Shown one piece after another: positions 351 through 57,237 of a stretch of DNA of 64,000 nucleotides; the first letter of the stretch is position 1, and the number at the start of each line of letters is the position of its first letter. Under the pieces are notes generated by a model. It made no database searches. It saw nothing but the letters and a program-made list of their open reading frames with translations, and was not told the DNA's origin. The position numbers and the translations under genes were made by a program. Source of the stretch: Eledone cirrhosa (lineage: Eukaryota); the NCBI GenBank assembly GCA_964016885.1, contig OZ024760.1, forward strand, positions 27,776,001-27,840,000, given 5' to 3'.

Positions 351-423
351 GCTCTGATACATATTTCAATGACAATCTCGGTCACTTGATTATTTAACCA
401 TTTACGTGATCTCATCAGACAGC
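351..423 (-). ncRNA. Type I hammerhead ribozyme-like motif
   Basis: Minus strand: GCTGT-CTGATGA-(stem II)-GAAAT-ATGT-ATC-AGAGC; stem I GCTGT/AGAGC has one mismatch; AUC cleavage triplet. Confidence 0.55.
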
Positions 424-801
424 AACATTAGGTAAAAGGTTAGGTTACCGTGGCAGTCCAGGATGCAAAGGAATCGACAAAATATTATGTTTTTGCATTC
501 GCAACAAAAACAAAATGCTAAATCATTATGAGATGTTAAAAGGGTTAAAAGGGTTTCTGATTTAGGCACAAGCCCAACAATTTTGGGCGAGGAGAGTCGA
601 TTCAATCGACCCCCAGTGAATTACTGGTACTTTATTTTATCCACCTTGTAAGGATGAAAAGCAAAACTAACCTTGGCAGGATCTGAATTGAAAACATAAA
701 GGGCTGTAACTCTATGCCACAAAGTATGTTGTCCGACTACTACCAATTCCTCAACAATGGTCTGTATGTGTAATTTCCACGTATTCTCTTTCTTATCCCA
801 G

Positions 802-932
802 ATGATGTGTGCACTGTTGTGGATAGAATCCCTCCGTTTACTAACATAGTACCAGACAACCCAAATGATTTGGCCAGCGCATTCATTTTTTCAACCAAAG
901 AATTACTTCGGCTAACTGATGATGCCAAATGC
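802..932 (+). CDS. Host gene exon 1 of 18 in window (gene begins upstream); uncharacterised protein with tandem ependymin/LolA-like repeats
   Basis: ttatcccAG acceptor, GTAAGT donor; phase 1 to 0; (D)DVCTVVDRIPPFTNIVPDNPNDLASAFIFSTKELLRLTDDAKC; joins exon 2 in frame. Confidence 0.8.
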
Positions 933-1620
933 GTAAGTAGAAATAGTAGCAGCTATTGCTACATCATTCATGCCAAATTATAGATGAATCACCCTACATA
1001 CTTCTCTCTCTCTCTCTCTCTCTCTCTCTCTCTCTCTCTCTCTCTCTCTCTCTCTCTATATATATATATATATATATATATATATATATATGAGAATTAG
1101 AACCCTGTAACCATTAAGCTCTAAGTATAAAGTACAAATAAATACTGAGCCGATTAACAATATATAGTAAGAAACACAGTAAACCGTGTGTCTTGTAATT
1201 TTAGACACACGGTTTACTGTGTTTCTTACTATATATTGTATATATATATATATATATAACGAAGGAAATGTGGTAAGGAACCAGGTGGACCATAACGCAC
1301 CAAAGTACTCAATACTTAGGGTAGTAGAGTGGGTAATAGGAATAAGTCTTACTTGTTCCTATATCATCATCATCATCATCATCATCATCAACGTTTAACG
1401 TCCGTGTTCCACGCTTGCATGGGTTTGGACGGGGGTTTTCCCACTTGAGGCAAGAGTGATTATCTTGCTCACATAGGACTGTCTGGCGGGTTTTCTACAG
1501 CTGGATGCCCTTCCTAACACCAACCACATTTACAGTGTGGGGCTGGGAGGTTTTTACCATGTTGCCTACACGGCCACATTACAGCGTGGACTATATATAT
1601 ATAATAAATATATAGAATAA

Positions 1621-1693
1621 ATTCTTTCTGATGATTGAAGGCAGATGTAAATTTCAAGCTCGTCTGTCTTCATGAAACCTTTGGTAAATGAAT
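1621..1693 (+). ncRNA. Type I hammerhead ribozyme motif
   Basis: ATTCTTT-CTGATGA(1628-1634); 12-bp stem II TGAAGGCAGATG/CGTCTGTCTTCA; GAAAC-CTTTG-GTA(1684-1686)-AATGAAT; lies between two (TA)n tracts. Confidence 0.75.
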
Positions 1694-1870
1694 TAATTAT
1701 CTTATGTTGTTTAATGTATAACTATATATATATATAAAAACAATAAGTTTTATGGTTAACTGAGCTGATTTTATAACAGACATGAAGCACTCTACTCTAC
1801 AGTATTTATCTGGAGTATTATTAATGTTAACAATATTAATAAATGGAAAGTATCTATATAATACCATATT

Positions 1871-1930
1871 TATTTTATTATAAGTATTTCAAGGATACTA
1901 AATTTTAGTGTGCTTTCATCAGATAAAATA
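1871..1930 (-). ncRNA. Type I hammerhead motif (left arm of palindrome 1826-2140)
   Basis: Minus strand: TATTTTAT-CTGATGA-AAG..ACTAAA/TTTAGT..CTT-GAAAT-ACTT-ATA-ATAAAATA; perfect 8-bp stem I. Confidence 0.7.
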
Positions 1931-2024
1931 TAATATTTGGTGTTAAAATATTGACATACCTTAGTGTAAACTTATACTAGTAAGCTTACACTAAGGTATG
2001 TCAATATTTTAACACCAAATATTA

Positions 2025-2098
2025 TATTTTATCTGATGAAAGCATACTAAAATTTTGTGTCCTTGAAATATGTATAATAAATATGTATAATAAAATAA
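2025..2098 (+). ncRNA. Type I hammerhead motif (right arm of palindrome 1826-2140)
   Basis: CTGATGA 2033-2039, GAAAT 2065-2069, ATGT loop, ATA 2074-2076; mirror copy of 1871-1930 with a small tandem duplication. Confidence 0.65.
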
Positions 2099-2266
2099 AT
2101 ATGGTATTATAAATATACTTTCCATTTACTAATATTGTTAATATATATATTTATATACATATATATATATAAATACATATATATATATAAATATAAATAT
2201 ATATATATATGTATATATATATATATATATATATATATATATATATATATATATATATATATATAT

Positions 2267-53990: not shown

Positions 53991-54082
53991 AAGGTATTTC
54001 CGTGGAAAAGGTAAAGGAAAGAAGAGTGCTCTATGTATAGTACAGAGCTATTTCATTATGTCATAAACAACACAATATAGTT

Positions 54083-54155
54083 ATTCCATTACTCAAGGTT
54101 TCACGAAGTCAGACAATTCTAACAGAAGCATGTGATATCGTTCATCAGAAGGAAT
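54083..54155 (-). ncRNA. Type I hammerhead motif (left arm of palindrome 54049-54286)
   Basis: Minus strand: ATTCCTT-CTGATGA-ACGA...TCGT-GAAAC-CTTGA-GTA-ATGGAAT. Confidence 0.7.
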
Positions 54156-54180
54156 CTTTATTTGGAAATCCAAATAAAGG

Positions 54181-54251
54181 TTCCTTCTGATGAACGAATT
54201 CAGGCGCTTCTGTTAGAATTGTCTGACTTCGTGAAACCTTGAGTAATGGAA
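54181..54251 (+). ncRNA. Type I hammerhead motif (right arm of palindrome 54049-54286)
   Basis: CTGATGA 54187-54193; extended stem II ACGAA/TTCGT, TCAG/CTGA, TTCT/AGAA; GAAAC 54233-54237; GTA 54243-54245; stem I TTCCTT/ATGGAA with one mismatch. Confidence 0.78.
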
Positions 54252-55030
54252 TAATTATATTGTGTTGTTTATGACATAATAAAATATATATATTTATAGT
54301 GAAGGTGCATGGCTTAGTGGTTAGAGCATTGGGCTTGCAATCGAAAGGTTGTGAGTTCAATTCTCAGACTGGGTGATGTGTTGTTTCCTTGAGCAAGACA
54401 CTTTATTTCACATTGCTCCAGTTTACTCAGCTGTAGAAATGAGTACCAACCTGCCCGCCCGCTTATCTTATGGAAAAAAAGCACATAGCACTCACTGTAA
54501 ATAAGGTTGGGAAGGGCATCCAGCTGTAGAAATCAAGCCAGAATCAGTTCTCGTCCCACCCTTACAAGCAGGGAAAAGCGGATGTGAAATGATGATGATA
54601 TATATATATATATATATATATATATATATATATATTCAGTAATTAGGAGTATTCCAAAGCTTGGTAGAACAAGTTGTGAGGAAAGTTCTCAACATACGTT
54701 AAGGTGACTCGACAGGTTGGTAGGGATTCTGTAGTGGAAACACGAACAAACGAGGAGTGTAATCAAAGAAGAGAAATAGGACGAAGGTAAACAGTTACAA
54801 AAGAATTTAATCTACGTATTAACAATTGTTAAGACGTGGATTAAATCCTTTTGTAACTGCTTACCTTCGTCCTATTTCTCTTTTTTATATATATATATAT
54901 ATAGTTGTTGTATTGTTGCAATAAATGCGTCCGTAGGCGGTATGCCGTTTGAGCACTCAATGCTCGCGCAGAGCAGAGTATATTATTAGAGATAATGAGG
55001 AATCAGTGATGCATTAAAACACAATTTATT

Positions 55031-55129
55031 AACATATTACATATGTTTCTCCGATGATCAGCTCAAGGCAGGATCTATTTTATTACAGATCGAACCTGAC
55101 TCTGTGTTCGCAAGGTCCTCAGATATGTT
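55031..55129 (-). ncRNA. Type I hammerhead motif (left arm of inverted repeat 54988-55505)
   Basis: Minus strand: AACATAT-CTGAGGA-long stem II region-GAAAC-ATAT-GTA-ATATGTT; perfect 7-bp stem I. Confidence 0.7.
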
Positions 55130-55369
55130 TAGTATTTTCAAAGCATTTCATCTGATTGAAATCATTCGATCCATTCCATCGTCTACAATTGACATCATCC
55201 TGTTGATACGGCCTTTTCAGGCAGTGGACGTATTTGACCAGTCAAAGGACGGCGGTGACGCTTGAGATTCTAAACCAATGAGAAGGCCGTATCAACTGGA
55301 TGATGTCAATTGTAGACGATGGAACGGATCGAATAATTTCATTCAGATGAAATGCTTTGAAAGTGCAAT

Positions 55370-55461
55370 ACATATCTGAGGACCTTGCAAATGCAAAGTC
55401 AGGTTCAGTCTGTAATAGGTCCTGCCGTGAGCTACTCATCGGAGAAACATATGTAATATGT
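55370..55461 (+). ncRNA. Type I hammerhead motif (right arm of inverted repeat 54988-55505)
   Basis: ACATAT-CTGAGGA(55376-55382) ... GAAAC(55444-55448)-ATAT-GTA-ATATGT; palindromic ACATATGT stem III. Confidence 0.7.
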
Positions 55462-55524
55462 TAATAAATTGTGTTTTGATGTATCACTGATTCCTCATTA
55501 TCTCTCTCTCTCTCTCTCTCTCTG

Positions 55525-57237
55525 TATATATATATATATATATATATATATATATATATATATATATATATATAATATATATATATATATATATATTTAT
55601 ATATATATTTATATATATATATATATATATATATTTATATATATATATATTTATATATATATATATATATATATATTTATATATATTTATATATATATAT
55701 ATATTTATATATATTTATATATATATATATATTTATATATATTTATATATATATATATATTTATATATATTTATATATATATTTATATATATTTATATAT
55801 ATATATATATATATATATATATATATATATATATATAAATATATATATATTTATATATATATATATTTATATATATTTATATATATATATATATATATAT
55901 TTATATATATTTATATATATTTATATATATATATATATATATATATATATATATATATATATATATATATTTATATATATATATATATATATATATATTT
56001 ATATATATTTATATATATTTATATATATATATATATATATATATATATTTATATATATTATATATATATATATATATATATATATATTTATATATATTTA
56101 TATATATATATATATATATTTATATATATTTATATATATATATATATATATATATATAAATATATATATATTTATATATATATATATAAATATATATATA
56201 TTTATATATATATATATAAATATATATATATTTATATATATATATATATAAATATATATATATTTATATATATATATATAAATATATATATATTTATATA
56301 TATATATATAAATATATATATATTTATATATATATATATAAATATATATATATTTATATATATATATATATATATATATTTATATATATATATATATATA
56401 TATATATATATATATATATATATATTTATATATATATATATTTATATATATATATATATATATATATATATATATATATATATATATTTATATATATATT
56501 TATATATATATATATATATATATATATATTTAGTCACTGCCAATTCAACTTTTCAAATACAAGTCGATGTTGTTACGGTATGTCAAATCTATTTATCTAT
56601 AAAACTGTTTATATTGTATTTTGTCTGAGGAAGGCATAGCATATTGTTAATATGATATCCCTGAAATATATATAATGAAATAAATATGGTTTTATAAATA
56701 TAGTTTCCATTTATTTAATATTGTATATATATATATATATATATATTTATATATATATATATATATATATATATATATATATATATATATATATATATAT
56801 ATATATATATATATTTATATATATATATATTTATATATATATATATTTATATATATATATATATATATATATATATATATTTATATATATATATATATAT
56901 ATTTATATATATATATATATATATATATATATATATATATATATATATATAAATATATATATATTTATATATATATATAAATATATATATATTTATATAT
57001 ATATATATATATATATATATATATATATATATATATATATATATATATATATATATATATATATATATATATATATATATATATATATTTATATATTTAT
57101 ATATATATATAAATATATATATATTTATATATATATATATATATATATATATATATATATATATATATATATATATATATATATATATATATATATATAT
57201 ATATATATATATATATAAATGAAAATAGAGAAATTAA
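55525..57237. repeat. Two large (TA)n arrays flanking a ~190-bp island
   Basis: 55525-56530 and 56724-57237. Confidence 0.95.
56617..56682 (+). ncRNA. Type I hammerhead ribozyme motif
   Basis: Stem I TATTTTGT/ATGAAATA (two G-U pairs); CTGAGGA 56625-56631; stem II AGG/CCT plus CATATT/AATATG; GAAAT-ATAT-ATA; island between two large (TA)n arrays. Confidence 0.78.

What the first reader, a model, noticed from the sequence alone, without database searches (positions are those of the whole stretch)
351..56682. Swarm of diverse minimal type I hammerhead ribozymes in the introns of one gene
Seen: at least 12 loci with the full ordered core stemI-CUGA(U/A/G)GA-stemII-GAAA-(2-3 bp stem III)-NUH-stemI' (351-, 1621+, 1871-, 2025+, 11643+, 11883-, 12886-, 16437-, 54083-, 54181+, 55031-, 55370+, 56617+), plus degenerate ones (14460 both arms, 16960-, 26240-, 49194+). 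Stem sequences are unrelated between roughly 8 families, yet pairing is kept each time, and most sit beside (TA)n tracts. Known: minimal type I hammerheads with a very short, often palindromic stem III mark the pseudo-LTRs of Penelope-like elements and non-autonomous retrozymes. Inference: this genome carries many lineages of short ribozyme-bearing retroelements that favour (TA)n, at roughly one motif per 4-5 kb here; no Penelope ORF is visible in the window.
Basis: partly seen in the sequence, partly recalled or inferred. Interest (0 to 1): 0.92.

Follow-up and report, generated by a model that had tools for sequence, protein, structure and literature searches.

The report
Penelope retrotransposon stubs carrying hammerhead ribozymes
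The many small self-cleaving RNA motifs in this stretch of an octopus genome are real, but they are the leftover ends of a known kind of jumping gene that litters the whole genome; the one surprise is that two families spread widely with an altered catalytic core.

Summary
The motifs are real: 8 pass a hammerhead descriptor against 0.025 in shuffles, and stems covary. They are neither gene-specific nor free retrozymes. The 18 motifs are 14 insertions (four inverted pairs), each a short, 5'-truncated 3' end of a Penelope-like element (PLE). Elsewhere in this octopod genome, five of the 14 families join PLE ORFs: Hydra clade (2025, 12886, 11883), Neptune (16960) and an unassigned GIY-YIG clade (14460). 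The copies show PLE anatomy: two fixed 3' ends, a tail at one end only, ragged 5' ends, inversions, and (TA)n targets. In Hydra-type families the ribozyme lies 25-60 nt from the first 3' end, so even very short insertions carry one. Forty systematic 10-kb stretches give about 46 motifs/Mb, roughly 140,000 genome-wide (64,000-228,000). Hydra PLEs with hammerheads, (TA)n targeting and one Octopus family are already published. New here: the scale, and two families with a fixed non-canonical core: F (CAGUUGA, 11 of 11 copies off-consensus) and J (CAGAAGA, 13 of 13, about 37,000 copies). Cleavage was not tested, and 'one gene' is unproven.

The parts
351..423 (-). Family D2 hammerhead (loop III TATGTA, cleavage after UC); one private G.G mismatch in stem I
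   Evidence: relatives L172, L056 keep the pair; no ORF link found
1621..1721 (+). Family B1 3' end with hammerhead (1621-1694), then (TA)n
1737..2140 (.). Family A1 (Hydra clade) inverted unit: reversed tail about 1737-1827, antisense hammerhead 1871-1930, sense hammerhead from 2025, 3' end 2140, (TA)n on both sides
   Evidence: about 90% paired hairpin
2627..2670 (-).
11643..11724 (+). Family B3 hammerhead, intact core, long stem II; no relative among the fetched loci
11835..12080 (-). Family E (Hydra clade, young: up to 99% identity) 3' end with intact hammerhead 11883-11937, plus an inverted tail stub at about 12043-12080
   Evidence: MFE fold gives stems I and II, z -3.1
12737..12803 (+). 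Tail-only insertion of family D (a second one at 13684-13779, minus strand)
12846..13155 (-). Family A2 (Hydra clade) 3' end with hammerhead 12892-12953, plus inverted 3' end and tail at 13027-13155
14136..14726 (.). Family F inverted unit (arms about 14136-14395 and 14420-14690, tail to 14726); core reads CAGUUGA in both arms and across the family
16246..16518 (-). Family D 3' end with hammerhead (about 16435-16497, loop III TGATCA) and tail
16879..17080 (-). Family G (Neptune-type) 3' end with the classic 2-nt-loop minimal hammerhead (about 16959-16994); two private substitutions in this copy
26240..26295 (-). Family F2, decayed minimal hammerhead (stem I broken); no blast relative among the fetched loci
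49186..49305 (+). Family H hammerhead; this copy has lost U16.1 (relative L166 has it)
53995..54286 (.). Family B2 inverted unit: reversed tail, antisense hammerhead from 54083, sense hammerhead from 54181
54904..55503 (.). Family C inverted unit: reversed tail, antisense hammerhead from 55031, sense hammerhead 55370-55463
56545..56724 (+). Family A3 3' end with intact hammerhead 56617-56682, inside a 1.7-kb (TA)n array
57965..58286 (+). Family J 3' end and tail with inversion (57965-58105), A2-type tail (58197-58256) and J tail (58263-58286); no hammerhead core left
25957..28076 (+). Three host exons (25957-26071, 26565-26731, 27848-28076) matching an Octopus bimaculoides Apple/PAN-domain protein; further + strand exon candidates lie between 801 and 63580

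Best explanation
Each motif is the hammerhead of a PLE pseudo-LTR, left behind by a 5'-truncated insertion. Steps: (1) SHOWN: full elements read pLTR(hammerhead)-5'UTR-ORF(RT, GIY-YIG)-3'UTR-pLTR(hammerhead); the 'tail' is the 5'UTR that follows the pLTR. (2) INFERRED, from the two fixed 3' ends and from the published PAc mechanism: the element's RNP nicks (TA)n and starts reverse transcription at one of two internal sites on a more-than-unit-length RNA, 25-60 and 95-195 nt past the scissile bond. (3) SHOWN as outcome: synthesis runs through an uncleaved hammerhead and usually stops within a few hundred bases, often adding an inverted copy, so one event leaves one or two motifs. (4) INFERRED: most of these ribozymes need a second copy to complete stem III through a palindromic loop. 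Lone or hairpin-trapped intronic copies are therefore probably silent and tolerated by the host gene. The swarm is a by-product of many PLE families, ribozyme position and early truncation.
For: ORF links. A1: same-strand hammerhead 0.2-1.4 kb behind the endonuclease in 10 of 15 endonuclease loci, inverted copy upstream in 4 of 15 (also L005, L006). A2: L203 shows pLTR-tail-ATG-ORF. E: L123 and L131 on two chromosomes share about 1.45 kb from endonuclease to hammerhead. G: L152. F: L196. Bimodal 3' ends in 7 of 8 families plotted; the eighth reference was cut too short to show a tail. Staircase 5' ends. Extra matches beside the 40 scored candidates, nearly all opposite-strand: A1 11, B2 14, C 4, E 9, D 2, F 5, G 0. 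Each of six family queries drew 1,197-2,067 candidates, 40 scored. Covariation in 15 A-superfamily copies: 90.9% of cells paired, 31 cells changed on both sides, 0 of 500 shuffles as high, slid controls 37-55%. Loop III is self-complementary in 11 of 14 clusters though the scan did not demand it; chance mean 1.3, max 6 in 5,000. No excess of antisense copies in the host gene: 8 sense, 10 antisense motifs (small n).
Against: Nine of 14 window families (A3, B1, B2, B3, C, D, D2, F2, H) have no ORF link in about 1 Mb of fetched DNA. The F and G links each rest on one locus, plus UTR sharing with a few more. Many A1 and C copies begin at an internal microsatellite of the UTR, which could also mark a short non-autonomous unit. 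No intact ORF was seen (longest open stretch fetched 506 aa). No cleavage or RNA data. The covariation set is related by descent, so the shuffle count is not a probability. Several monomers do not fold as hammerheads at minimum free energy.
Confidence: 0.87

Rival explanations
1. Some window families (B, C, D, H) are non-autonomous retrozyme- or SINE-like units. They are transcribed as short RNAs, processed by their hammerheads (possibly to circles), and mobilised in trans by PLE proteins.
For: No ORF link for these families. 5' ends cluster at an internal microsatellite in A1 and C. This genome does hold a tandem hammerhead array with 638-bp spacing, a 5' inversion and a tail (L184/L145). A 2026 preprint argues that animal retrozymes derive from PLEs.
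Against: No tandem copies of B, C, D or G among the 40 scored matches of each. 5' ends form a staircase. G looked fixed-ended in query-selected loci, but unselected copies run much further into a Neptune ORF. No pile-up of 5' ends at the cleavage site.
Confidence: 0.2
2. The intronic hammerheads act on the host pre-mRNA. Sense copies cleave as monomers, or pair across families through shared palindromic loops (TATATA type), and so tune or recursively process the long introns.
For: Eight motifs are sense to the host exons. Several families share TATATA/TATGTA loops. Copy 11883 folds well, though it is antisense.
Against: Density elsewhere is of the same order. Copies decay, including loss of U16.1 at 49194. 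Four sense copies sit in 88-94% paired hairpins with their antisense twins. Predicted self-dimer helices are weak, -1.6 to -5.2 kcal/mol. Published PLE minimal hammerheads are inactive as monomers and slow as dimers.
Confidence: 0.05
3. Chance matches in AT-rich, microsatellite-rich DNA.
For: A-family stems I and III are AT-rich, and some copies have folding z-scores near 0. Rfam lists no hammerhead among the 150 best of 215 matches shown.
Against: Shuffle controls, over a thousand candidates per family, covariation, fixed position at PLE 3' ends.
Confidence: 0.01

Closest known systems
Hydra-clade PLEs (Craig et al. 2021, PMC8557442), including Hydra-1_Obim of Octopus bimaculoides
   Same: C-terminal GIY-YIG-type ORF with RWK-like, DKT and CxCX5C motifs, (TA)n targets, a type I hammerhead near the 3' end, 5' inversions, a tail at one end. 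The L203 protein follows the published Hydra alignment motif by motif (by eye).
   Different: Many families instead of one. Different hammerhead sequences from Hydra-1_Obim. 3'UTRs of about 1-1.4 kb, so elements exceed the '<3 kb' described. Tails about 55-140 nt instead of 30-40. Family J has a U4A core and a 5-bp non-palindromic stem III.
Minimal hammerheads of metazoan PLEs (Cervera and de la Pena 2014, PMC4209133)
   Same: Many unrelated families per genome, mostly single motifs from truncated PLEs, opposite-strand pairs 100-700 bp apart, palindromic loop III. Family G has the 2-nt loop.
   Different: Counts there are about 2,000-9,000 per genome; here about 140,000 by extrapolation with a different descriptor. 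Most families here have 6-7-nt loops.
PAc Poseidon element in vitro (Frangieh et al. 2024, PMC11167929)
   Same: Two internal reverse-transcription starts define the tail; uncleaved RNA is the template; AT-rich targets.
   Different: There the hammerhead overlaps the ORF start and both RT starts lie inside the ORF. Here the hammerhead, both 3' ends and the tail lie upstream of the ATG.
Non-LTR retrozymes (Cervera and de la Pena 2020, PMC7229834; Li et al. 2026 preprint)
   Same: Type I hammerheads, very high copy numbers (axolotl up to 120,000), PLE connection.
   Different: Window families are not tandem 150-450-bp repeats, and five are parts of ORF-bearing elements. A true array exists elsewhere in this genome (L184).

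Membership tests
Type I hammerhead ribozyme | Ordered core CUGANGA / GAAA / UH | tested here: met
   13 of 13 'full' loci. Family copies canonical: A1 29/31, E 30/31 (core), D 9/9, C 13/16, G 13/13, B2 3/3. Not met for F (0/11) and J (0/13).
Type I hammerhead ribozyme | Stems I and II with covariation, open ends in stem I | tested here: met
   (9 of 22 pairs change on both sides, 7 of them in stem II; none in stem I of this set). Stem I differs between families yet pairs (where 4 pairs were imposed).
Type I hammerhead ribozyme | Site-specific self-cleavage | not testable with these tools
   No RNA run holds the stretch; no bench assay. No pile-up of 5' ends at the site.
PLE minimal (dimer-type) hammerhead | Short, self-complementary loop III | tested here: met
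   11 of 14 clusters, chance mean 1.3. J is an exception (5-bp stem III, 7-nt loop).
Penelope-like element | RT plus C-terminal GIY-YIG ORF joined to the hammerhead-bearing pLTR | tested here: met
   A1, A2, E, F, G and J. Pfam GIY-YIG above cut-off only for the L151-type endonuclease, 1 of 5 PLE segments scanned. Atlas neighbours carry HTH_animal, RVT_1 and GIY-YIG.
Penelope-like element | Same ORF link for families A3, B1-3, C, D, D2, F2, H | tested here: inconclusive
Penelope-like element | 5' truncation, inversion, optional tail at one end | tested here: met
   G shows truncation but no inversion or tail in 40 of 40 scored matches.
Hydra clade | RWK motif, DKG changed to DKT, CxCX5C linker, CxxC/CxH around E and N, no CCHH | tested here: met
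   L203 and L205 (RWR, SDKT), L005 and L206 (CNCR-x4-C linker, CxxC..E..N..CxH), read against the published text and alignment. By motif and eye; no tree was built.
Hydra clade | (TA)n insertion | tested here: met
Hydra clade | Generally shorter than 3 kb | tested here: not met
   ORF about 2.2 kb plus 3'UTR about 1-1.4 kb. A tendency in the paper, not a strict criterion.
Neptune clade (family G) | CX2-5CxxC linker and Neptune-type RT motifs | tested here: met
   One broken copy, L152, matches the Neptune1_Ap rows of the published alignment by eye.
Non-LTR retrozyme | Head-to-tail tandem units, each with a hammerhead, no ORF | tested here: not met
   No tandem units among window families. Met only by the out-of-window array L184/L145.
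Non-LTR retrozyme | Abundant circular or multimeric RNA | not testable with these tools
   No RNA holder listed.

The most novel reading that the evidence does not exclude
Two PLE families of this genome multiplied with a fixed change in the hammerhead core. F (in the window at 14460) carries U4A plus A6U. J (remnants at 2627 and 57965; ORF-joined Hydra clade; about 37,000 copies, median 93% pairwise identity) carries U4A, a CUU triplet and a 5-bp non-palindromic stem III. Either these are dead ribozymes, which would be genomic evidence that hammerhead catalysis is dispensable for PLE spread in vivo, or J is an undescribed monomer-type variant slowed by its core instead of by dimer dependence.
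Probability: 0.5. Interest if true: 0.6.

Novelty: new member of a known kind. Interest (0 to 1): 0.38.

Why it matters
The kind of object is published, down to a Hydra-clade family with a hammerhead in Octopus. Two things add value. First, scale: about 10^5 motifs from dozens of clusters puts this genome level with the largest counts I saw in print (axolotl up to 120,000; Schistosoma mansoni over 38,000, which is denser per Mb given its recalled size of about 0.4 Gb). That is a large natural library of stem variants. Second, the purpose of the PLE hammerhead is an open question: Craig et al. call it unclear, and Frangieh et al. found it unnecessary in vitro. Families F and J beside a dozen families with perfectly kept cores make the question directly testable.

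Tried and rejected
Rfam: no hammerhead among the 150 matches shown; 65 lower ones were not displayed.

'G is a fixed-length SINE-like monomer' (and my second note): withdrawn. It was an artefact of query selection; unselected copies extend into an ORF.

L121 as an ORF link for E: rejected. That ORF ends in another family's UTR and is separated from E by (TA)n and a SINE. L087 as a link for C: rejected; that ORF belongs to J. L110 was not a continuous link for E.

Fossil evidence of cleavage (5' ends piling at the scissile bond): none. The 6 near-site ends in family B are mostly (5 of 6) alignment breaks in sister subfamilies.

RNA: no RNA holder listed, which is no evidence either way. Contig depths cannot be read as copy numbers. 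I used that call only for letters: at 16962 and 16979 about 99% of the summed depth carries the pairing base. One run of unrecorded type (X4) was not interpreted.

TA-tract number versus hit number in the 40 stretches: rho 0.21, P 0.20, no clear relation.

PDB search of the Hydra ORF: 0 hits. Host-gene searches with two exons: no homologue.

In the covariation alignment I dropped 1 of 16 rows for wrong coordinates and re-cut another.

The genome sample covers only contigs C1-C7 (about 65% of the bases); a planned third set on smaller chromosomes was not obtained. My second note says 12 stretches hold a hit; the count is 11 of 40.

Earlier findings of the scan: none. Lunse et al. on dimer cleavage is not held; I know it only through its citation in PMC6765202.

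
Full report
SETTING. The window lies on contig C21 of a 3.0-Gb assembly. Three + strand exons match an Octopus bimaculoides Apple-domain protein at 57% identity, so the host is an octopod (inference; not pursued further). Most of the window is satellite, microsatellite and SINE.

OBSERVATION. 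All 13 'full' loci carry CUGANGA...GAAA...UH in order. A strict descriptor finds 6 against shuffle means of 0.02-0.03. A medium one finds 8 against 0.025. Five of the 13 fail the medium descriptor through a mismatch in stem I or at the base of stem II. Some faults are private: relatives of 351 keep the pair, the relative of 49194 keeps U16.1, and about 99% of summed contig depth has the pairing base at 16962 and 16979. In 15 copies of the A superfamily 90.9% of cells pair and 31 cells change on both sides; 0 of 500 shuffles reach this, and slid controls give 37-55%. The rows are related, so this is support and not a P value. In about 1.0 Mb of window and loci, mostly query-selected, 201 hits fall into 38 clusters at 85% identity. 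Of the 14 clusters with two or more members, 11 have a self-complementary loop III that the scan did not require (chance mean 1.3). Fourteen of 18 motifs have (TA)n within 250 nt downstream, against 31% of background positions.

NOT A LOCAL SWARM. Forty 10-kb stretches taken at fixed steps along C1-C7 hold 19 hits in 11 stretches, against 0.5 in shuffles. That is 46/Mb (bootstrap 21-76), or about 140,000 (64,000-228,000) if the rest of the genome is alike. The window has 125/Mb by the same rule; resampling gives P about 0.04, without allowing for its selection. The 18 motifs are 14 insertions, because four are inverted units. Eight motifs are sense to the exons and ten antisense. Whether the exons form one gene is unresolved.

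WHAT THEY ARE. Family queries for A1, B2, C, E, D, G and F each drew 1,197-2,067 candidates, 40 scored; these are not copy numbers. For A1, a same-strand hammerhead lies 0.2-1.4 kb behind the endonuclease in 10 of 15 endonuclease loci, and an inverted copy precedes the truncated ORF in 4 of 15. L203 is a near-full-length A2-type element: pLTR with hammerhead, then the tail, then the ATG, then a broken ORF with a 506-aa open stretch. The tail is therefore the 5'UTR, and templates must be longer than one unit. E joins an ORF in L123 and L131, on two chromosomes, over about 1.45 kb. The A-type ORFs have the Hydra-clade marks: RWK-like, DKT, CxCX5C, CxxC and CxH, no CCHH; the E-type ORF, seen from mid-RT onward, has the same linker and is 50% identical to L203. 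G joins a Neptune-type ORF in L152, and F follows the end of a GIY-YIG domain in L196, related to the L151 endonuclease that passes the Pfam GIY-YIG cut-off. For A3, B1-3, C, D, D2, F2 and H I found no ORF link. B2, C and D show the same anatomy in their own loci, A3 and H in one relative each; B1, B3, D2 and F2 were not searched genome-wide. The window itself has no PLE ORF.

ANATOMY. 3' ends fall in two groups, counted from the scissile bond: A1 +55 and about +150, A2 +45-60 and +150, B +40 and +95, C +60 and +135, D +55 and +195, E +50 and +135, J +25 and +110 (the far ends were set by where I cut each reference, at the end of a seen tail). 5' ends form a staircase, with no excess at the cleavage site. 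Tails occur at one end only, often reversed at the 5' side. Tail-only insertions exist in the window. The four inverted units fold into 88-94% paired hairpins.

MECHANISM. Shown: element layout, insertion anatomy, passage of the copy through an intact ribozyme. Inferred from PMC11167929 and the two 3' ends: nicking of (TA)n, two internal starts of reverse transcription, early stop, and a second inverted priming or fold-back. Because the ribozyme sits within about 130 nt of the first start in the Hydra-type families, even very short insertions carry it; this explains the density without any host role. Inferred from loop III and PMC4209133: cleavage needs a dimer or the element's protein, so single intronic copies are probably silent. 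Confidence 0.87. Rivals: non-autonomous units for the unlinked families 0.2 (can hold for some families alongside the main reading), host function 0.05, chance 0.01.

CORE-VARIANT FAMILIES. F reads CAGUUGA in 10 of 11 copies and GAGUUGA in one. Most were picked with a query that included the core, but two copies met by chance in flanks agree, and a more distant relative has a near-canonical core. J was never used to pick the loci counted; all 13 copies read CAGAAGA, with a 5-bp stem I, a 5-bp stem III and a CUU triplet. Its hammerhead fold scores -5.5 kcal/mol against a minimum of -8.8. J joins a Hydra-type endonuclease in L184, and that endonuclease-UTR stretch recurs in L142, L149, L173 and L087. 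Five exact A4 matches in 400 kb imply about 37,000 copies (12,000-87,000), against 89 exact U4 matches in the genome. Against a simple reading: the 3 U4 copies fetched all lack the usual upstream sequence, and the core lies in a 7-nt near-palindrome, so U4 copies may come from fold-back or from a small intact sister family. Natural core variants can keep some activity; a U4C viroid variant stays infectious (PMC3088659).

LITERATURE SEEN. PMC8557442: passages, section 11, supplement part 2 and passages; it lists Hydra-1_Obim with a hammerhead and (TA)n preference. PMC4209133: parts 1-2 of 4. PMC11167929: parts 1-2 of 4. bioRxiv 10.64898/2026.07.22.740005: part 1 of 5; its supplements are closed and may list cephalopods. 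Passages only: PMC7229834, PMC2770079, PMC3088659, PMC6765202, PMC13282606 (31 recently active PLE families in O. vulgaris, no mention of ribozymes), PMC6962438 (235 Rfam hammerheads in giant squid). Searches showed no paper that counts octopus hammerheads or describes PLE families with a fixed A4 core; the library lacks most subscription journals.

VERDICT. New member of a known kind, interest 0.38. The core-variant families are the lead worth a bench test.

Noticed in passing
L184:5100-6801 and L145:1-1100 (G000:C1, about 439.122-439.124 Mb): Tandem hammerhead array with 638-bp spacing (two full copies and a truncated one), an internal (TA)n, a 5' inverted copy and a short tail: a retrozyme-like array with PLE insertion anatomy.
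   Followed up: partly
window 2627-2670 (-), 57965-58105; L183, L184, L138, L142, L155, L159, L167: Family J: abundant Hydra-clade 3' end with a fixed CAGAAGA core and a 5-bp stem III.
   Followed up: yes
window about 38240-43850 (-): About 5.6-kb LINE with two long reading frames (looks L1/Tx1-like by eye; label recalled), inserted in a 72-bp satellite.
   Followed up: no
window 1157-1239 and 54757-54896: Near-perfect hairpins next to (TA)n, without a hammerhead core; possibly inverted ends of further PLE families.
   Followed up: no
window 1737-2140, 14136-14726, 53995-54286, 54904-55503: Inverted PLE units give 236-555-nt hairpins, 88-94% paired, between host exons; candidate A-to-I editing substrates (heavy editing in coleoids is recalled).
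   Followed up: no
window 16879-17080: The G insertion ends about 14 nt before the splice acceptor of the exon at 17095.
   Followed up: no
window 61012-61049 (-): Short piece of the family G 3'UTR without hammerhead.
   Followed up: no
window 33940-34800: Compound (TC)n-(TA)n-(GA)n palindrome with a 109-121-bp repeat; source of spurious Rfam miRNA hits.
   Followed up: no
window 54308-54371 (+), 57887-57944 (-), 20484-21006, 59592-59966: tRNA-like SINE heads and tandem 191-bp SINE copies.
   Followed up: no
clusters; window 1628, 16437, 49199: Several families open stem II with U opposite U, as do the published Hydra magnipapillata hammerheads; probably a clade feature, not decay.
   Followed up: partly
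L177, L190, L117, L142: Different PLE families often sit end to end at one (TA)n tract, which may explain local clusters.
   Followed up: no
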